From Bacteroidia bacterium (GTDB lineage Bacteria > Bacteroidota > Bacteroidia > B-17B0 > Aurantibacillaceae), in the NCBI GenBank assembly GCA_044353195.1, contig JBILCJ010000001.1, positions 9,213 through 73,212 on the forward strand: a stretch of 64,000 bases of DNA, given 5' to 3'. A program made the translations under genes and the position numbers. Numbering within the stretch: position 1 is the stretch's first letter; the number at the start of each line of letters is the position of its first letter. The notes beneath the pieces are model-generated. The model saw nothing but the letters and a program-made list of their open reading frames with translations, did no database searches and was not told the origin of the DNA. This document shows positions 5,707 through 42,354 of this stretch, piece by piece.

Positions 5707-6005
5707 AATTTTTATTTTAATGCATTAAAGCTACTATCTATTTTTTTACTACAAACATAATGGAAATAAAAATGAGATTTGTTTTACATGATCTTTTTTT
5801 CTTTTTAGTAATTCAAGAATCTAGTCATAAAACATAACTCTTTAGTTCCATTATCAACCTTCTATTAACAACAAAAAACCTATTTATCAAGCACTTACAT
5901 TTTCAGTAATGTGTATTTAGTTAATTACTCCATTTTTTGTTAATAACCCAACTTTAATAGGGTCTAAAGCCTTCGTATTTTTAGATATTAAACAAAATTG
6001 TATTA

Positions 6006-7247
6006 ATGAGTTTACAAGTTAATGTAAAAGATTTATTGTCGAATTTATACACTAATCGTGGTGTGATAGAATTGTTATTTGGTCAACGTGATCAAATAAC
6101 TGTCAATGAATTATTGGGAAGGGACGATATTAGCGAAGAGCAATACCGAAAATTAGTTTCATTAGATATTTTATTTGAATACGAAAATGTAGTTAGTTTA
6201 AATGACGCAGTGGTAAGCATGTTCGAAGATTTTATGGAAATTGGAGAAGTGACCCCAGGTTTCATAAATGACTACATCAATGAATTAAAACGTCATATTC
6301 GTTTTTATCAAGAGGCTCGTGAAATGAGGTTTTTGCGCAGTATCAAAAAATATTTAAAGAGAATTAATTCTACGTTGACAAGAGAGATTATTAAGCTCCA
6401 AAAAAATGTGGATGATACTTATAAAAATGAAGGGAATTACCGCATTAAGTTACAGAAACTAGAAGATTACAGAGAAAAGCGTGATACGATTATTGATTTT
6501 ATAAAGCAAACTTCTGCTATTGTTGATGAAACAAGAGTTCTGTTTAATATTACAAATGATACAGAATTATTTGGCATTGTATCTTCATTGAAATCAAGTT
6601 TGATTGAAAACCTCGATTTCTTAATTGAAATACAAACTGATATTACAGATTTTATTAATAAGATTCAGTTTCAATTAGATGTTTATAAAAAAGCTCAGCG
6701 TTTAAAAGAGGTTAAAGATCATGGGGCATTGCACTATAAAACTAATTTCAAGGAAATTGTAGGTTCTATCAACACGCTTAAGCACAATGGTCACAAAACA
6801 CCAAAAACAAAAATCCCAATGGAGTTTTTGTATAGCGATGAAGGCCATGTTTTGTGTAAACGCATTGCAGAAAAATATAAAATAACACGATTAATGGTTC
6901 GTGGAGTTGCCGATAAAATGTCGGTTAACTTTAAAGATAAAGGTCTAGAACAAAATATAAAATTAGATACTGAAAAGTTAGTTGAACGTTTTTTAGATCA
7001 AACGAAACAAAATTTATTTGAGTATCTAATTGAGTATAAATTCCCGAAAGCAATTGGTAACGTTTCTTTTGAAGATAGACTATCCTTGTTTGTTGAAATT
7101 GCGATGGAATATCAAACCAAATTAGATTTTAAATATCGACTTCAATACCATGATTATATTGAAGAAGAAACTAAAATAAAAAAGCGATTAGGTTATACAT
7201 TGATTGTGCCAATTAAAGAAAAAACAAAAAAAGAAAAAATTAAATAG
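6006..7247 (+). CDS. Hypothetical protein, MukF/MksF/JetA-like (kleisin-position) subunit of an SMC-like complex
   Basis: First gene of a tight three-gene operon. 413 aa with a helical, K/E-rich central region. The assignment rests only on position and size relative to the SMC-like ATPase, with no diagnostic motif. Confidence 0.45.
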   Translation: MSLQVNVKDLLSNLYTNRGVIELLFGQRDQITVNELLGRDDISEEQYRKLVSLDILFEYENVVSLNDAVVSMFEDFMEIGEVTPGFINDYINELKRHIRFYQEAREMRFLRSIKKYLKRINSTLTREIIKLQKNVDDTYKNEGNYRIKLQKLEDYREKRDTIIDFIKQTSAIVDETRVLFNITNDTELFGIVSSLKSSLIENLDFLIEIQTDITDFINKIQFQLDVYKKAQRLKEVKDHGALHYKTNFKEIVGSINTLKHNGHKTPKTKIPMEFLYSDEGHVLCKRIAEKYKITRLMVRGVADKMSVNFKDKGLEQNIKLDTEKLVERFLDQTKQNLFEYLIEYKFPKAIGNVSFEDRLSLFVEIAMEYQTKLDFKYRLQYHDYIEEETKIKKRLGYTLIVPIKEKTKKEKIK

Positions 7248-7277
7248 TTAGGTTATAACATTAACATACAAATTAAT

Positions 7278-7886
7278 ATGGAAGACTCAATAAATTTCAA
7301 CTTACCAAAACAAACACACGATATTTTTTCGGTAATGGCTCGAGGTGCTTTTATATCGAGTAATGGAAGTCGTGATGGCATGAATAGGTTGTATGACGTG
7401 ATTAATAATCCAGACAATTTTGATAGACTTCAAGCTTATTTTAATGTGATTAGATATAATATCGAACGAGGAAATAACTTTTTTTATTTTGCGAAATTAA
7501 GTGAACCCAATAGTGAAATTGAAAAAAAACTTGAACGATTTGAGCGCTATATAGATATTATTGATTTGTTTGCTAGTATGGATAACAAAATTGGTATTGG
7601 ATCTCGATTTCGTCCGGGAGAAATTGCTGAAGAGTGTAATGCAAATGTTCGTTTAAAACAGAAATTGCAAAAAATTCCATTATACCGTTCAGAAACATTA
7701 CACAATAAAGTACGCGAAATCTGTGATCTTATGAGTAGAGATTCTTTTTTAGAATTAGAAGATGAAAAAACTGAATCATACAAAGTTTTAGATTCTTATT
7801 CTTACTTATTGGAAATTATTAATTCTGTTGCTATATACGAAGATGGTTCAGAAACGAATGACGCGCAAGGATTAGTTTATAATTAA
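7278..7886 (+). CDS. Hypothetical protein, MukE/MksE/JetB-like (KITE-position) subunit
   Basis: 202 aa, acidic, starts 30 nt after the upstream gene. The block LQAYFNVIRYNIERGNNFFYFA resembles, from memory, the conserved DUF4194/MksE core. Position is between the kleisin-like and SMC-like genes. Confidence 0.45.
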   Translation: MEDSINFNLPKQTHDIFSVMARGAFISSNGSRDGMNRLYDVINNPDNFDRLQAYFNVIRYNIERGNNFFYFAKLSEPNSEIEKKLERFERYIDIIDLFASMDNKIGIGSRFRPGEIAEECNANVRLKQKLQKIPLYRSETLHNKVREICDLMSRDSFLELEDEKTESYKVLDSYSYLLEIINSVAIYEDGSETNDAQGLVYN

Positions 7887-7896
7887 AATTTTTAAA

Positions 7897-10800
7897 ATGG
7901 ATAACTGTAGAATATTAAATAGAATTGTACAAATAAATATTGCCAACGTAAAGTATACGGATTTAGAGTTGAGTGGTAATACATGTTTTGTTGGCACAAA
8001 TAATTTCGGAAAAACATCGTTGCAACGAGCTATTTTGTTTTTTTATAGTGCAAATACTAGAGGGTTAGGTATTTCTCCTTCACAAAAACCGTTTGACGAA
8101 CATTACTTTAAATTCGAAAACTCTTATTTAATATATGAAATACGTACAGAAGATAAACCTTTTTTTGTTATTGTTTATCGTCACAACAAATTAGTGTTCC
8201 GTTTTGTAGATGCTGAATACTCACCCGATTTTTTCTTTAATGAAAATGACGAGGCCTTAAAAATTAAAGAAGTTATTTCTGGCTTTGATAAACGTGGTGT
8301 ATTTTATTCAGGACAAATTGATACGTTTGAACGATATCGTAATATCTTGTACGGAACTGAAACAGATAAGTCATTAACTAAATTTCATTTACTAAAAGGG
8401 AATGAAAAATATCAAAATATACCTAAATCTATTACTAATGTTTTCTTAAGTTCTAAAAGTAGTATCGATAGCCGTTTTATTAAAGATTTCATTGCCAACT
8501 CGCTTTCAACTGAGAATAGTAGTATTAAGTTAGAGCAAGTTGATAGACAATTACGTCAGTTTAATGAAAAATATTCTGACATCGAAACGTATCTAAAAAA
8601 GGAAACACAACAACTGATTGAATTTATTGATAAAAAATATGACCAAGTGCACATGCTGAAAGGTGCGCAAATGGAAATGGCTGATAAACTTGGTAGCAGT
8701 TTACGTTATGCTGAAACGCAGAACGAAACTGTTATTAAAGCATCGCAAGCAAAACAAGAAGAACTAGATAAAATAACAGAAGCTCACGACGATCAAAAAA
8801 TCGCTTTAGAAGAAAAGCAAAAGGATGTGCGTGAAGAAATTGGTTATTATGATAGAACGATTCGTGAAGCCAATAAGAAATTAAAAGAGTACAAAGAGAA
8901 AAATATAGACGAAGCGGTTGGGAAAAATGCAGAAAGAGATAAGCTTCAAGTAGAATATAATATTGCAAGACGAGAATATGAATCTTTAACGAGTAATGTT
9001 CAAAGTATTGAAATGAAATATGCTTCATTAGTTGAGCAATTAAGAAATGATAAAACTGCTTATGTAAATAAAATAAACTCTAAAACAAGTGAAATTTTTA
9101 ATCACTATAACGAGTTACAATTATTGCAAAAAAACGAATACAGTAAAAAAGATGTTGAATTAAAACAAAAACGAGAAGAAGCTTTAACAGAAATCAACGC
9201 TGATATTACGACCAAACAAATTGAGTTTAATGAATTAAAGGCAGAGGAAAAAGTTATTCGTAATACACGGTTTTATGAAACTGAAATCAAGGCTCAAGAA
9301 ACGGAATTAGCTGATTTAAGAGCGATTAATTATAAGAATAAAAGTGAATTAGCTATTAAAAATAATCTTGTTCAAAGTAATCAAAAGGAATGGGAAAATT
9401 TAGAGCTTCGACTTAAAACATCTTTGAATAATCAAATTCAGATCACTAATAATGAAATTATTAGGGTTAAAACTGAGATTAAAGCAATCGAAGAGAAATT
9501 GAATGTTCAGCATGATGCCTTGTATGGTTATTTAGAAAAAAATGTAAAAGACTGGCATACAACTATAGGTAAAGTAGTAAATGAAGAATTACTATTTCGT
9601 ACAGATTTAAATCCTTCAAAAGTTGATGATAAAGGATTGTCAATGTATGGCATTTCTTTAAAGTTGGATGATGTAAAAGTTGTTTCAAAAACAATTGAAG
9701 AATACCAATTTGAAAAGAACGAAAGACTTGCTATTATTAGAGATTTAGAAGAATCGTTAAATCAATTTCAAGGAACAAACACTGAAGAGAAAATGTTGGC
9801 TGCTGATAAATTCGGTAAGCAATTAGGGGAATTGAAAGAAGATTTAAAAGTGTTGACTTACTCTTTAGAGTTAGCAGAAAAACGCGAGAAAAAATTAATT
9901 CTTGAATTAGAGGATTGGAAACAACGTGCTAGTAAAGAAGTAGAAGAATCTTTGACTGGCAACAAACAAAAAGTAAATCTAATCGAAGAAGAATTAGCAA
10001 TCTTAAATAAAAAGAAAAATAATTTATTGAATGATTTCAATACTCAACTCGATAAATTAAAAGCTTTTAATGATGAGCGTTTAGCTGATTTGAAAGGAAG
10101 GCAAGAAACTGAAATTAGTGAGTTAGAAGTTGAGAAGAAAAATCAAGTTAAAGAATACGAGGAAAAAGAAACAGAGTTAAGCAACGAAAAAGAAACTAAT
10201 TTTAAAGCGAAAGGTGTTGATAGTAAAGAAATAAAACGAATAGATGCTAAAATTAAAGAACTTCAAGATGCGTTAAAAGAAATTGATCAATACTCGCAAG
10301 TTGTTAGCGATTACTTGAAAGATAAACGCGAAATTTTTGATAAACTTCCTGATTTAATTCAGAAAAAAGAGGAATACGTTAAAACAGCTAATGATTTAAC
10401 TAACGAGTTAGAAGAAATTTCTCGCAAGTTTAATATCAAACGTATGGAGTTGAATAAACAAAAACGTGCGTTTGAAGAAGAATTAATTGAGTTTAATAAC
10501 GGTATCAATTATTTTACTAAAAACTTCCGTGAAACTCCTGTGTTTAATAAGTATGCAGACATCATAGATAGAGCAGAACCTAAAAAAACAAATTATAGTG
10601 TCATGGATTTGTGCACTCAATTATTAAAAAATGATTCGCACTTTAATGAAGAGTACACTGCTTTTCAACGATACGTTAATGAGTTTTCTGGTAAGTTTAG
10701 GATTGATAACCATTTTAATTTCATCATTCGTAATGATGCTACACAAGGTGAATACGAGCGCTTTGCTCAAAATTTACGTTCGTTTATAAATGAAAACAAA

Positions 10801-11580
10801 ATCGAATTATCCATTGCAGAAACAGCTACTCAAATTGGGTTAGTAACAGATAGTATCGCCACTAAAGTGAAGGAACTGAGTGGGCAAAAAGATAAAATTC
10901 AACACATCATTACTCTTATTGCAGAAGACTTTAAAAAAGCTGAATTCGAGCAATCTAAACTTATTGAATTTATTAAAATTCGATTAGAGGAATCGGATAA
11001 TAAAGTCTATAAATTATTGAAACGTATTCAAGAATTTAGAGAAGAAAATGGATTAGTGTATAACGAAGGTTTATTTAATACTGATTTTGCGACTCATAAA
11101 AATCGTGAAATTAGTAACAGAGCTGTTAAATTATTAGATCAATTAAGAACTGCAATTAAAGAACAAGAACAAGAAGAAATTCGTTTGCAAGATCTGTTTG
11201 AATTGAAATTTAATATCAAAGAAGGTTTAAACGAAACAGGTTGGACTCATAAAATTGATAGTATTGGAAGTACTGGAACAGACGTGCTAGTAAAAGCGAT
11301 TATTTATATCACACTATTACACGTATTTATAAAAGAATCATCTCACCGAAGTAGTTCTGATTTTAGAGTTCATTGTATAATTGATGAAGTTGGACAAATT
11401 TCAGCTCATTATTTACGAGAATTATTACGCTTTGCAAAAGATAGAAATATTATGATGATTAATGGTTTACCAAATAAATCTGGCTTAGAGGCACATTATA
11501 AATATACCTACCAATTCCGTAGAGAAGAAAACAATAATGTGCGAATCTTCCCAAGTATTGTAACAGAAGTTGAAGCCTAA
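7897..11580 (+). CDS. SMC/MukB/JetC-like split-head ABC ATPase with long coiled coils
   Basis: Walker A is GTNNFGKTS (nt 7993-8019). About 900 aa of K/E/L-rich heptad-like sequence is interrupted by a non-coiled segment at aa ~539-601 (nt ~9511-9700). Walker B/D-loop is HCIIDEVGQ (nt 11371-11397). Confidence 0.8.
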   Translation: MDNCRILNRIVQINIANVKYTDLELSGNTCFVGTNNFGKTSLQRAILFFYSANTRGLGISPSQKPFDEHYFKFENSYLIYEIRTEDKPFFVIVYRHNKLVFRFVDAEYSPDFFFNENDEALKIKEVISGFDKRGVFYSGQIDTFERYRNILYGTETDKSLTKFHLLKGNEKYQNIPKSITNVFLSSKSSIDSRFIKDFIANSLSTENSSIKLEQVDRQLRQFNEKYSDIETYLKKETQQLIEFIDKKYDQVHMLKGAQMEMADKLGSSLRYAETQNETVIKASQAKQEELDKITEAHDDQKIALEEKQKDVREEIGYYDRTIREANKKLKEYKEKNIDEAVGKNAERDKLQVEYNIARREYESLTSNVQSIEMKYASLVEQLRNDKTAYVNKINSKTSEIFNHYNELQLLQKNEYSKKDVELKQKREEALTEINADITTKQIEFNELKAEEKVIRNTRFYETEIKAQETELADLRAINYKNKSELAIKNNLVQSNQKEWENLELRLKTSLNNQIQITNNEIIRVKTEIKAIEEKLNVQHDALYGYLEKNVKDWHTTIGKVVNEELLFRTDLNPSKVDDKGLSMYGISLKLDDVKVVSKTIEEYQFEKNERLAIIRDLEESLNQFQGTNTEEKMLAADKFGKQLGELKEDLKVLTYSLELAEKREKKLILELEDWKQRASKEVEESLTGNKQKVNLIEEELAILNKKKNNLLNDFNTQLDKLKAFNDERLADLKGRQETEISELEVEKKNQVKEYEEKETELSNEKETNFKAKGVDSKEIKRIDAKIKELQDALKEIDQYSQVVSDYLKDKREIFDKLPDLIQKKEEYVKTANDLTNELEEISRKFNIKRMELNKQKRAFEEELIEFNNGINYFTKNFRETPVFNKYADIIDRAEPKKTNYSVMDLCTQLLKNDSHFNEEYTAFQRYVNEFSGKFRIDNHFNFIIRNDATQGEYERFAQNLRSFINENKIELSIAETATQIGLVTDSIATKVKELSGQKDKIQHIITLIAEDFKKAEFEQSKLIEFIKIRLEESDNKVYKLLKRIQEFREENGLVYNEGLFNTDFATHKNREISNRAVKLLDQLRTAIKEQEQEEIRLQDLFELKFNIKEGLNETGWTHKIDSIGSTGTDVLVKAIIYITLLHVFIKESSHRSSSDFRVHCIIDEVGQISAHYLRELLRFAKDRNIMMINGLPNKSGLEAHYKYTYQFRREENNNVRIFPSIVTEVEA

Positions 11581-11599: not shown

Positions 11600-11630
11600 A
11601 AAAAGGGATTGCATCGCAATCCCTTTTTTT
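11600..11630. terminator. Bidirectional intrinsic terminator closing the SMC-like operon
   Basis: Stem AAAAAGGGATTGC/GCAATCCCTTTTT with loop ATC, then a T-run. An A-run upstream serves the convergent minus-strand gene. Confidence 0.85.
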
Positions 11631-40990: not shown

Positions 40991-42130
40991 CTAATTAATT
41001 AATTCTAAAAGGTTAGTACAAATATACTTCAACATTTCTTCCTCCATCTCAGTATGCATTGGTAACGATAAAACCGTTGCGCAAAGTTTTTCTGTAATCG
41101 GAAAATCTTCTTTTTTAAATCGGTCGCTTTTATATGCATTTTGTTCATGCAATGGAATAGGGTAGTAAATCATTGCGGGTATACCACGTTCAGCTAATTG
41201 CTCGCGTAATAATTTTCTATCAACGCCAATCAATTGTAATGTGTATTGATGAAACACATGCGTAGAATTTTTTACTCTAACTGGTGTTTTTAATTTTGGG
41301 TGATTTGCAAAAGCACCATCATAAAAATCGGCAGCTTTATTTCTTGCCGCAGCGTATTCATCAAGATGTTTTAACTTTACTTTTAAAATAGCAGCTTGTA
41401 TAGTATCTAATCGCGAATTTACGCCTAGCACATCGTGCACATATTGCACGCTTTGACCATGGTGAGCAATCATTCTTAATTTTTTCGCAAGGTCATCATC
41501 GTTGGTATAAATAGCTCCACCATCACCGTAACAACCTAAATTTTTACTCGGAAAAAATGAAGTGCAACCGATTGTACCAATGGTTCCAGCTTTCCTAATC
41601 GTGCCATCATTAAAAGTATAATCAGCACCAATAGCTTGTGCTACATCTTCAATTACAAATAAATTATGCTTTTGCGCTAAAGCCATGATGCGTTCCATAT
41701 CCGCACATTGTCCAAATAAATGAACAGGTACAATTGCTTTAGTTTTTGGTGTGATGGCTTTTTCTATGGCTTCAATATTGATATCGAACGTATCTTCATA
41801 AACATCAACCAGAACTGGTGTTAAACCAAGTAATCCTATCACTTCAGCAGTTGCAACGTAGGTAAAACTAGCTGTAATCACCTCATCACCTGGCTTCAAA
41901 TCCAGAGCCATCATGGCAATTTGTAGTGCGTCTGTCCCATTTGCGCATGGAATAACGTGTTTTACGTGTAAGTAATTTTCTAAATCTGCTTGAAATTCTT
42001 TTACCGCTGGTCCGTTAATAAATGCTGTATTTGAAATGACTTCTTCAATGCCTGCATCAACTTCAGCCTTTATTTTTAGGTATTGACTTTTTAAGTCAAC
42101 CATTTGTATTTTTTTTTCTAAAGTTGCCAT
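40991..42130 (-). CDS. DegT/DnrJ/EryC1/StrS family sugar aminotransferase
   Basis: 379 aa with the family layout, including FFPSKNLG (PLP-lysine region). Confidence 0.9.
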   Translation of the reverse strand: MATLEKKIQMVDLKSQYLKIKAEVDAGIEEVISNTAFINGPAVKEFQADLENYLHVKHVIPCANGTDALQIAMMALDLKPGDEVITASFTYVATAEVIGLLGLTPVLVDVYEDTFDINIEAIEKAITPKTKAIVPVHLFGQCADMERIMALAQKHNLFVIEDVAQAIGADYTFNDGTIRKAGTIGTIGCTSFFPSKNLGCYGDGGAIYTNDDDLAKKLRMIAHHGQSVQYVHDVLGVNSRLDTIQAAILKVKLKHLDEYAAARNKAADFYDGAFANHPKLKTPVRVKNSTHVFHQYTLQLIGVDRKLLREQLAERGIPAMIYYPIPLHEQNAYKSDRFKKEDFPITEKLCATVLSLPMHTEMEEEMLKYICTNLLELIN

Positions 42131-42354
42131 TCTTTAATTTCAAATTTTAGTATGCGAATATAACGAATTTGCCACAACTAAGTTGGCTTTATGTTTAAAA
42201 TAATTTGGAGCTATTTCCTACTTTCCGCTCTATCTTTTTTGCATGAAAAAATGTAAAAAAGGATGCCGCTTCTATCAGGGCTAGTTTTTGCTCTAATTTG
42301 GATGAGTCTTTCTTTTTCAGGTTCTATAAATGAAATTCTCAGCGACCTTTGTTG

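What the first reader, a model, noticed from the sequence alone, without database searches (positions are those of the whole stretch)
6006..11580. MksFEB / Wadjet JetABC-like SMC operon with no nuclease partner
Three co-directional genes (413, 202 and 1227 aa) are separated by 30-nt and 10-nt gaps. A 299-bp AT-rich spacer lies upstream and a strong bidirectional terminator (11600-11630) lies downstream. The large protein has the split-head SMC layout: Walker A, a long coiled coil, a hinge-like break, a second coiled coil, then Walker B. Gene order and sizes (about 400, about 200 and over 1100 aa) match mukF-mukE-mukB, mksF-mksE-mksB and Wadjet jetA-jetB-jetC. Wadjet plasmid cleavage depends on the Toprim protein JetD (MksG). 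Here the next gene is a convergent 150-aa lipoprotein, so no nuclease is encoded at the locus. It could be a divergent Bacteroidota condensin. It could also be a defence-type SMC module whose effector is absent, acts in trans, or is of a new kind. I could not assign either small subunit by a firm motif, which suggests strong divergence from described families.
Basis: partly seen in the sequence, partly recalled or inferred. Interest (0 to 1): 0.85.

Follow-up and report, generated by a model that had tools for sequence, protein, structure and literature searches.

The report
Nuclease-less MksFEB-type SMC operon
This is a three-gene SMC "condensin-like" operon from an uncultured Bacteroidia lineage; its relatives carry a DNA-cutting partner for plasmid defence, but this lineage has lost that partner and kept the rest under very strong selection, so it is another example of a known kind, not a new one.

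Summary
Three co-directional genes (413, 202 and 1227 aa) sit between a 299-bp AT-rich spacer and a strong bidirectional terminator.

- **E** matches Pfam MksE (1e-29).
- **B** matches DUF3584 over its full length (5e-61). It has Walker A, an STG signature, Walker B, two long helical arms and a small hinge.
- **F** has no sequence match anywhere. Its confident AlphaFold model (pLDDT 89) finds MukF as its ten best PDB matches.

No nuclease is encoded in the operon, in the 64-kb window, or within ±10 kb in 80 related species.

The same family also occurs as a four-gene operon, F-E-B-X. X is a roughly 285-aa Toprim protein (Pfam DUF7281, weakly JetD-like). F-E-B-X operons lie on plasmids and in defence islands. 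One of the two closest outgroups of this lineage has X. The nuclease has therefore been lost here, and lost repeatedly elsewhere in the family.

In this lineage F-E-B is present in at least 150 species representatives, 80 of which were examined here. It sits among housekeeping genes, has dN/dS of 0.01-0.07, and is more conserved than the neighbouring fhs gene.

The best reading is a domesticated, cleavage-free chromosome-organising SMC complex, like P. aeruginosa MksBEF or MukBEF. That evolutionary route is already proposed in the literature. Verdict: new member of a known kind, moderate interest.

The parts
5851..5984 (+). Conserved upstream control region of the operon. It holds two GTTAATWAC boxes (5920-5928 and 5939-5947, 19 nt apart), an inverted copy ATTAAC (5864-5869), TTATCAA boxes (5851-5857 and 5884-5890), a weak -33-like TTTA (5953-5956), and a -7-like TATTTTTA (5976-5983) 22 nt before the ATG.
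   Evidence: These blocks are conserved across the lineage whatever the upstream neighbour, even though synonymous sites are saturated. No consensus RNA structure was found, so this is a DNA-level element. Two of the three GTTAATWAC sites in the 64-kb window are here. The promoter/operator role is inferred, not shown.
6006..7247 (+). F subunit (413 aa), a MukF/MksF-like kleisin. It has an N-terminal winged helix (about residues 1-76), a long helical bundle (85-238), a low-confidence linker (lowest around residues 251-320) and a C-terminal winged helix (322-402).
   Evidence: There is no Pfam, NCBIfam, PADLOC or PDB sequence match, even with a 73-sequence profile. The AlphaFold2 model has pLDDT 89.4. 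The ten best Foldseek PDB matches are all MukF chains (9gm7, 7nz2, 3euh, 1t98, 3rpu), with a best E-value of 4.8e-4.
7278..7886 (+). E subunit (202 aa), an MksE-family KITE protein.
   Evidence: Pfam PF21980 MksE: E = 1.3e-29, 104 bits, covering profile positions 1-160 of 163. The JetB (DUF4194) match is not significant.
7897..11580 (+). B subunit (1227 aa), a MukB/MksB-like SMC ATPase.
   Evidence: Pfam DUF3584: E = 5.3e-61, covering profile positions 13-1175 of 1191. The ATPase motifs are invariant in distant homologues. The signature and Walker B regions align with the LSTGE and LDE motifs of E. coli MukB.
7993..8019 (+). Walker A / P-loop of B (GTNNFGKTS, residues 33-41).
   Evidence: G33, G38 and K39 are invariant.
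9541..9693 (+). Small hinge of B (about residues 549-599), between the ascending arm (residues 229-536) and the descending arm (600-892).
   Evidence: Secondary structure of the AlphaFold2 model (arm pLDDT 70-89, hinge low). W553, G558, L566 and G585 are invariant across clades.
11266..11388 (+). Signature motif GSTGT (residues 1124-1128) and Walker B HCIIDE (1159-1164) of B.
   Evidence: S1125, G1127, D1163 and E1164 are invariant.
11600..11628 (.). Bidirectional intrinsic terminator shared with the convergent lipoprotein gene.
   Evidence: 13-bp stem, z = -5.1, A-run on the 5' side and T-run on the 3' side.

Best explanation
The three genes encode a MukBEF-like SMC complex of the Mks/Wadjet group. 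B is an SMC-type ATPase that dimerises through a small hinge. F is a MukF-like kleisin that bridges the B heads. E is a KITE protein that binds F.

By analogy with MukBEF, P. aeruginosa MksBEF and JetABC, the complex should entrap DNA and extrude loops using ATP. This is inferred, not shown.

Related operons in other Bacteroidota carry a fourth gene, X, a Toprim nuclease of the DUF7281 family that is JetD-like. Those operons sit on plasmids and in defence islands, so they are probably plasmid-restricting Wadjet-like systems. This lineage has lost X but kept F, E and B intact and highly constrained.

The most likely function here is therefore cleavage-free chromosome organisation or segregation. 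That would make it a domesticated condensin, parallel to the origin proposed for MksBEF and MukBEF. The subunit identities are shown by the evidence here. Loss of the nuclease is inferred from a coarse, unsupported tree, and the housekeeping function is also inferred.
For: **Subunit identity.** MksE and DUF3584 match strongly. The F model resembles MukF. The ATPase motifs are conserved. The arm-hinge-arm layout is seen in the B model.

**No nuclease.** No Jet or Toprim match was found in the 64-kb window; the only 'ATPase-Toprim' PADLOC match was to two proteins and was attributed, without a direct check, to the window's two ABC ATPases. X has no tblastn match in the window or in the 80 loci with ±10 kb flanks. 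The flanks in those 80 loci are housekeeping genes: fhs, a bshC-like gene, a GT1 glycosyltransferase, proS, htpG and ppiD.

**Family context.** F-E-B-X operons occur in Phocaeicola massiliensis (two copies), on Persicobacter plasmids, and in L098, L099, L100 and L101. L101 lies next to Gabija, TIR and Schlafen genes. X has invariant ENxE and GDxD Toprim motifs and a JetD C-terminal match of 6e-6. L098 (F-E-B-X) and Sporocytophaga (F-E-B) are the closest outgroups, with 42-43% (F), 46% (E) and 39-41% (B) identity.

**Constraint.** F-E-B is present in at least 150 species representatives and always in the same order. dN/dS is 0.01-0.07 with dS above 1. Mean amino-acid identity is 90-92%, against 88% for the adjacent fhs gene. 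The promoter region is also conserved.

**Contrast with X.** X homologues are patchy and diverse, with a median pairwise identity of 50%.

[quoted passage not shown] Several Wadjet-group members lack MksG/JetD (PMC7617805).
Against: There are no functional data for any member of this Bacteroidota family. I could not search whole genomes of the lineage, so a nuclease encoded elsewhere, and the presence or absence of Smc-ScpAB, remain unknown. Strong purifying selection shows that the complex is functional, not what the function is; a cleavage-free anti-plasmid role would also be selected. The phylogeny is a neighbour-joining tree at 25-45% identity, and no support values were read from it. The head domains of the B model are of low confidence.
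Confidence: 0.6

Rival explanations
1. It is still a plasmid or phage defence system, and its nuclease or other effector is encoded elsewhere in the genome or is of an unrecognised type.
For: The closest family members are F-E-B-X operons in defence or plasmid contexts. Only 64 kb of this genome and ±10 kb around 80 related operons could be inspected.
Against: In every sampled case X lies directly downstream of B. The profile search for X returned 235 diverse proteins. It did not return a large block of near-identical sequences, which this heavily sampled lineage gives for F and B. The flanks are housekeeping genes and vary between species, with no conserved partner gene. Conservation is higher than for a central-metabolism enzyme, which is unusual for a defence system.
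Confidence: 0.15
2. It restrains extrachromosomal DNA without cutting it, for example by compacting, silencing or mis-segregating plasmids, as Smc5/6 does with viral DNA.
For: The complex descends from a plasmid-sensing family. Persicobacter carries an F-E-B copy and an F-E-B-X copy on separate secondary replicons. That would fit distinct DNA-management roles on multi-replicon genomes.
Against: No evidence bears on this directly. Lineage-wide vertical retention and the housekeeping context fit a chromosomal role at least as well.
Confidence: 0.15
3. It is a decaying remnant of a Wadjet-like system left after nuclease loss, with no current function.
For: The nuclease gene is missing. Unrelated genes have been inserted between E and B in relatives.
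Against: All three ORFs are intact in 80 species, dN/dS is 0.01-0.07 with saturated dS, and the ATPase motifs are invariant. A truly disrupted copy looks different: in L099 an IS605-family transposase (OrfB) gene sits between E and B, and the B product there is only 582 aa.
Confidence: 0.02

Closest known systems
MksBEF of Pseudomonas aeruginosa (nuclease-less Muk-like SMC; Petrushenko et al. 2011; Lioy et al. 2020)
   Same: Both are three-gene F-E-B operons without MksG/JetD. Pfam files E under MksE, a family named for the MksBEF-type condensin, and files B under DUF3584. A chromosomal housekeeping context and a proposed origin by loss of JetD (PMC10586767) are shared.
   Different: No P. aeruginosa sequence was compared directly here. 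F is not recognised by any sequence model. The host is Bacteroidota. The nuclease-bearing sister operons use a short DUF7281 Toprim protein. Whether it coexists with Smc-ScpAB, as in P. aeruginosa, is unknown.
MukBEF of Escherichia coli
   Same: The gene order F-E-B is the same. The F model's best structural matches are MukF. The signature (STG) and Walker B regions of B align with those of MukB. MukBEF is also a Wadjet-group member without a nuclease (PMC7617805).
   Different: No sequence-level similarity was detected for F or E, and no MukF, MukE or MukB Pfam domains match. B is 1227 aa against 1486 aa for MukB, with a much smaller hinge. No MatP, Topo IV or AcpP link is known.
Wadjet JetABCD / MksBEFG / EptABCD plasmid-restriction systems
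   Same: The overall SMC-kleisin-KITE design is the same. Related Bacteroidota operons carry a Toprim fourth gene with weak JetD C-terminal similarity and the E...DxD motifs, some in defence islands or on plasmids.
   Different: The window has no JetD. The PADLOC JetA, JetB and JetC models do not match significantly. X is only about 256-297 aa, and only the last ~130 residues of X match JetD models, aligning to their C-terminal end. The Bacteroidota FEBG operons seen in the parts of Buermann et al. Data S1 that were read have a different size class (B about 1050-1130 aa, F about 440-490 aa).
DUF3584 three-gene operon of Shewanella (Price et al., bioRxiv 10.1101/072470)
   Same: It is a DUF3584 protein cofit with two small hypothetical proteins. 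It was proposed to be an SMC-like chromosome-partitioning or repair system with cisplatin and motility phenotypes.
   Different: The host is a proteobacterium and no sequences were compared here. Proteobacterial plasmid homologues found here have the order B-E-F-X and only 16-22% identity to B.

Membership tests
Mks/MukBEF-like SMC complex (Wadjet group in the broad sense) | A large SMC-like ABC ATPase with Walker A, signature motif and Walker B split by two long antiparallel coiled-coil arms and a hinge | tested here: met
   DUF3584 matches over its full length at 5e-61. The motifs are located and invariant. Helices span 229-536 and 600-892 around a hinge at about 549-599 (head domains low confidence).
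Mks/MukBEF-like SMC complex (Wadjet group in the broad sense) | A KITE subunit of the MksE/MukE/JetB type encoded next to the ATPase | tested here: met
   Pfam MksE PF21980, E = 1.3e-29.
Mks/MukBEF-like SMC complex (Wadjet group in the broad sense) | A MukF/MksF/JetA-type kleisin with N- and C-terminal winged-helix domains joined by a helical middle domain and a flexible linker | tested here: met
   AlphaFold2 model with pLDDT 89.4 shows this layout. The top ten Foldseek PDB matches are MukF. Sequence methods are negative.
Mks/MukBEF-like SMC complex (Wadjet group in the broad sense) | Assembly into a complex with ATP-dependent DNA entrapment or loop extrusion | not testable with these tools
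   This needs biochemistry, or at least multimer modelling, which was not available.
Wadjet defence system in the strict sense (JetABCD/MksBEFG) | A JetD/MksG Toprim nuclease encoded in the operon | tested here: not met
   The gene downstream of B is a convergent lipoprotein gene. No Jet or true Toprim match was found in the window. X has no tblastn match in the window or in 80 related loci.
Wadjet defence system in the strict sense (JetABCD/MksBEFG) | Matches to the JetA (DUF3375), JetB (DUF4194) and JetC profiles used by defence finders | tested here: not met
   PADLOC gave no match for JetA, E = 0.015 for JetB and E = 0.084 for JetC. Pfam gave no DUF3375 or DUF4194 match.
Wadjet defence system in the strict sense (JetABCD/MksBEFG) | Patchy distribution in defence islands or mobile elements | tested here: not met
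   The window and the flanks in 80 loci are housekeeping. The operon is vertically retained with dN/dS of 0.01-0.07. In contrast, the F-E-B-X relatives do show this feature.
MukBEF proper (Enterobacterales type) | Sequence membership of the MukF, MukE and MukB families | tested here: not met
   No Muk Pfam domains match. hhalign of the F profile against E. coli MukF gives probability 0.1. BLASTP of E and B gives only motif-level similarity.
Smc-ScpAB | SMC_N and SMC hinge domains with ScpA/ScpB partners | tested here: not met
   No SMC_N, SMC_hinge, ScpA or ScpB match for the three proteins at E up to 0.1. The window has no other ORF longer than 936 aa outside the operon. A motif scan for an SMC-type gene in all fetched DNA found none.
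Housekeeping condensin (functional class) | Chromosome segregation or organisation phenotype, and loading on the chromosome | not testable with these tools
   This is only inferred from conservation and context.

The most novel reading that the evidence does not exclude
In a large uncultured Bacteroidia lineage, and independently in Parabacteroides, Sporocytophaga and Flammeovirga/Persicobacter, a Wadjet-like plasmid-defence SMC system has lost its Toprim nuclease. It has then been domesticated into a core chromosome-organising condensin. This would be a fresh, datable replay of the route proposed for MukBEF. It may also account for the 'currently unidentified SMC complexes' inferred from Hi-C maps of gut Bacteroidota, in which no known condensin was found (PMC10197239).
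Probability: 0.3. Interest if true: 0.6.

Novelty: new member of a known kind. Interest (0 to 1): 0.35.

Why it matters
Nuclease-less Mks/Wadjet-group complexes are already recognised (MukBEF, P. aeruginosa MksBEF), and reviews already propose that they arose from defence systems by loss of JetD. This locus adds a clean natural example in Bacteroidota. Closely related operons with and without the Toprim gene exist, sometimes in the same genome, as in Persicobacter. That makes the switch from defence system to chromosome organiser testable by comparison.

There are also practical annotation gains:
- the kleisin of this family is annotated only as 'hypothetical protein', with no Pfam model;
- B is annotated only as 'ATP-binding protein';
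- the four-gene version did not reach significance against PADLOC's JetA/B/C profiles, and its X subunit gives only weak JetD matches, so it may go uncalled as Wadjet;
- a Hi-C study reported no condensin homologues in two gut Bacteroidota, although homologous operons occur in Parabacteroides, Phocaeicola and Bacteroides.

Tried and rejected
**Sequence routes to name F all failed.** These were Pfam, NCBIfam, PADLOC, phmmer against PDB, a 73-sequence profile against PDB and Pfam, and hhalign against E. coli MukF. Only structure prediction followed by Foldseek worked.

**BLASTP against E. coli MukE and MukB** gave nothing beyond the ATPase motifs.

**Structure of B.** The protein exceeds the 1200-aa limit. 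The accepted shallow alignment gave pLDDT 56 with unreliable heads, so no fold search was run on it.

**Homologue searches.** The homologous-protein runs with F and with the B profile listed only members of the same lineage at 78-100% identity. Diversity had to come from the representative search, the plasmid collection and contig look-ups instead.

**A co-resident Smc-ScpAB** could not be tested. A motif scan of all 1.79 Mb of fetched DNA found no SMC-type gene, which is uninformative.

**Cluster 0.** I considered that this co-directional upstream gene, seen in 39 loci, might be a fourth subunit. It is a GT1 glycosyltransferase, mostly 130-590 bp upstream of F.

**A structured 5' leader** in the conserved upstream region was considered. 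RNAalifold found no pairs and Rfam found nothing.

**The PADLOC 'ATPase-Toprim' match** in the window was to two proteins; it was attributed, without a direct check, to the window's two ABC-transporter ATPases.
Full report
**1. The observation**

The window holds three co-directional ORFs at 6006-7247 (413 aa, called F here), 7278-7886 (202 aa, E) and 7897-11580 (1227 aa, B).
- The gaps between them are 30 nt and 10 nt.
- Upstream lies a 299-bp spacer with 22.7% GC that separates F from a divergent formate-tetrahydrofolate ligase gene, fhs.
- Downstream, a 13-bp hairpin at 11600-11628 is flanked by an A-run and a T-run. It folds far better than shuffled sequence (z = -5.1) and serves both B and the convergent 150-aa lipoprotein-like gene.

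**2. What the proteins are**

*E and B.* E matches Pfam MksE (PF21980) at 1.3e-29. B matches DUF3584 (PF12128) from end to end at 5.3e-61.

PADLOC's Wadjet profiles do not match: JetA gives nothing, JetB gives E = 0.015 and JetC gives E = 0.084. NCBIfam has nothing, and no solved structure is detectable by sequence.

B has Walker A GTNNFGKTS (residues 33-41), signature GSTGT (1124-1128) and Walker B HCIIDE (1159-1164). The key residues are invariant in homologues only 16-29% identical overall. The signature and Walker B stretch aligns with the LSTGE and LDE motifs of E. coli MukB.

An AlphaFold2 model of residues 1-1200 is poor in the heads (mean pLDDT 56). It shows long helices at 229-536 and 600-892 (pLDDT 70-89) around a short non-helical hinge at about 549-599. 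That hinge contains residues invariant across clades.

*F.* F has no match in Pfam, NCBIfam, PADLOC or PDB, even as a 73-sequence profile. hhalign against E. coli MukF is also negative.

With that alignment, AlphaFold2 gives a confident model (pLDDT 89.4) with four parts:
- an N-terminal winged helix;
- a long helical bundle;
- a low-confidence linker;
- a C-terminal winged helix.

Its ten best Foldseek matches in the PDB are all MukF chains, with a best E-value of 4.8e-4 and probabilities of 0.72-1.0. F is therefore a MukF-type kleisin, and the operon encodes a kleisin, a KITE protein and an SMC-like ATPase.

**3. Where it occurs and how it evolves in this lineage**

The genome scan found 150 relatives of F among species representatives, all in uncultured Bacteroidia/Bacteroidota MAGs. 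F identity was 76-100% in the 80 best, which were kept.

In every one of the 80 loci fetched, wherever the contig extends far enough, F, E and B are together and in the same order.

The flanks differ between sub-clades and are housekeeping genes: fhs, a bshC-like gene, a GT1 glycosyltransferase, proS, htpG, ppiD and a T9SS-tail protein.

The rest of the 64-kb window is also housekeeping: ribonucleotide reductase, SHMT, GcpE, CarB and others. The window contains no Jet component. The only 'ATPase-Toprim' PADLOC match was to two proteins and was attributed, without a direct check, to the window's two ABC-transporter ATPases.

Against nine relatives that share the fhs neighbour:
- synonymous sites are saturated (dS above 1);
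- dN/dS is 0.01-0.07;
- mean amino-acid identity is 90% for F, 91% for E and 92% for B, against 88% for fhs.

About 130 nt upstream of F is conserved across the lineage whatever the neighbouring gene. It includes two GTTAATWAC boxes 19 nt apart and a -7-like TATTTTTA. It has no consensus RNA fold, so it is most likely a promoter/operator region.

**4. The wider family and the missing nuclease**

F's family is small: 213 clusters at 50% identity out of 1.84 billion representatives. The examples sampled are all Bacteroidota.

*Three-gene operons with housekeeping flanks* occur in:
- Flammeovirga kamogawensis;
- Sporocytophaga;
- Parabacteroides distasonis and gut Parabacteroides;
- Persicobacter secondary replicons.

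NCBI already names the Parabacteroides E subunit 'condensin complex protein MksE'.

*Four-gene operons* have the same three proteins (F without a Pfam match, MksE, DUF3584) followed directly by a fourth gene, X, of 256-297 aa. They occur in:
- Phocaeicola massiliensis, two copies;
- Persicobacter plasmid pPP6, beside a relaxase and a toxin-antitoxin pair, and JZB09 plasmid 1;
- metagenomic loci L098, L099, L100 and L101.

L101 lies in a defence island with Gabija, TIR and Schlafen-like genes.

X belongs to Pfam DUF7281. It matches only the C-terminal ~130 residues of PADLOC JetD models (E from 6e-6 to 9e-5) and carries invariant ENxE and GDxD motifs typical of Toprim domains. Proteobacterial plasmids carry a B-E-F-X version.

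The two closest outgroups of the window's lineage are L098, which has X, and Sporocytophaga, which lacks it. They share 42-43% (F), 46% (E) and 39-41% (B) identity with the window. All other clades share 24-37%.

In a coarse neighbour-joining tree, from which no support values were read, operons without X appear in at least four places. The nuclease has therefore probably been lost repeatedly, including at the base of this lineage.

*Is X encoded elsewhere in this lineage?* X has no tblastn match in the window or in the 80 loci. A profile search for X returned 235 diverse proteins, with a median pairwise identity of 50% and 68 clusters at 75% identity among the 120 listed. There was no block of near-identical sequences of the kind this heavily sampled lineage gives for F and B. 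The two largest X clusters are cis-linked F-E-B-X operons. This argues against an X gene elsewhere in these genomes, but it is not a whole-genome test.

**5. Mechanism**

*Shown:* the subunit identities, the intact ATPase motifs, the absence of a linked nuclease, and strong purifying selection.

*Inferred from established knowledge of MukBEF and JetABC:* B dimerises at the hinge, F bridges the heads and recruits E, and the complex entraps DNA and extrudes loops using ATP.

*Inferred from context:* without X the complex cannot cleave DNA. Lineage-wide vertical retention among housekeeping genes then points to chromosome organisation or segregation. [quoted passage not shown]

I put this reading at about 0.6. 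The rivals are:
- an effector acting in trans (0.15);
- cleavage-free restraint of extrachromosomal DNA (0.15);
- a decaying remnant, effectively excluded by dN/dS (0.02).

**6. Comparison with what is known, and novelty**

The locus passes the structural tests for a Muk-like SMC complex. It fails the tests for strict Wadjet (no JetD, no Jet profile matches, no defence-island context), for MukBEF proper and for Smc-ScpAB.

The parts of Buermann et al. Data S1 that were read list other Bacteroidota FEBG operons of a different size class (B about 1050-1130 aa). None of the species found here appeared among the names searched.

A Hi-C study reported that no known condensin homologues could be found in Bacteroides caecimuris and Muribaculum intestinale, and concluded that other SMC complexes remain to be identified (PMC10197239). 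Homologous operons are present in Parabacteroides, Phocaeicola and Bacteroides finegoldii. However, the Phocaeicola copies carry X, and the two Hi-C species themselves were not tested here.

Price et al. linked a DUF3584 three-gene operon in Shewanella to cisplatin and motility phenotypes.

Overall this is a new member of a known kind. The identification is sound and the evolutionary setting is instructive, but neither the architecture nor the absence of a nuclease is new. Interest: 0.35.

**7. Limits**
- There are no whole genomes, so the presence of Smc-ScpAB and of unlinked nucleases is untested.
- The phylogeny is distance-based and covers very divergent sequences.
- The head domains of B are not modelled reliably.
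- No experiment exists for any member of this Bacteroidota family.

Noticed in passing
L006 11881-12879, L011 9880-10875, and 31 other loci including L002 and L003 (absent from the window, where the E-B gap at 7887-7896 is 10 nt): In 33 of 80 related species a 331-332 aa ORF lies wedged between E and B, with gaps of about 11 and 35 nt. It has an N-terminal signal peptide and no Pfam match. It is far less conserved (54-100% identity) than F, E and B. It is present in the window's closest relatives at 96-97% identity, so the window's species appears to have lost it cleanly.
   Followed up: partly
L060 11277-15924; L101 1121-4315; L099 2324-3508: The E-B junction looks like an insertion hotspot. 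L060 carries a 217-aa ORF between F and E, and four ORFs between E and B: RhuM, a glyoxalase-like protein, a phosphoribosyltransferase and a DprA/SLOG-like protein. L101 (F-E-B-X) has a 1064-aa ORF without a Pfam match between E and B. L099 has an IS605-family transposase (OrfB) gene there, and the DUF3584 (B) product is only 582 aa.
   Followed up: partly
L087 11696-12553, L089 11645-12523, L090 11663-12556, L096 9696-10550, L098 13590-14360, L099 5273-6145, L100 8001-8852, L101 8001-8858: DUF7281 (PF23947) is the Toprim effector of a four-gene Wadjet-like family: F without a Pfam match, MksE, DUF3584 and DUF7281. PADLOC's JetA/B/C profiles do not match it significantly, and its JetD profiles match only weakly. 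No paper in the searched library mentions DUF7281. This four-gene family may go uncalled by PADLOC's Wadjet profiles; the full tools were not run.
   Followed up: partly
L087/L088 (Persicobacter psychrovividus pPP6 and pPP3), L095/L096 (Persicobacter sp. JZB09 plasmids 2 and 1), L089/L090 (Phocaeicola massiliensis): Single genomes carry two paralogous systems. Each Persicobacter has one F-E-B and one F-E-B-X on different secondary replicons. One P. massiliensis strain has two divergent F-E-B-X operons, with B proteins 33% identical.
   Followed up: partly
window 5851-5984: A non-coding region upstream of F is conserved across the whole lineage. It has repeated (T)GTTAAT boxes in both orientations and TTATCAA boxes, and more distant sub-clades have extra CTGTTAAT copies. 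This suggests an unknown DNA-binding regulator.
   Followed up: partly
window 42210-42286 (- strand): A Flavo-1 RNA motif (Rfam RF01705, 64.6 bits, above the gathering score) lies in the 5' region of the gene at 40991-42130.
   Followed up: no
L086 (NZ_OY725754.1), L093/L094 (NZ_OY725907.1), L089/L090 (OY725996.1, OY726003.1): PLSDB 'plasmid' records of the TSDC17.2-1.1 gut isolates carry core chromosomal genes (rplU, rpmA, gcvT, dapF, secA), and one breaks inside B. They look like chromosomal contigs mislabelled as circular plasmids.
   Followed up: no
Flammeovirga pectinis protein AZQ60653.1, locus tag EI427_00035: The F homologue is about the seventh gene of its chromosome record, so it may lie close to the replication origin. 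Whether these operons are origin-proximal in general was not examined.
   Followed up: no
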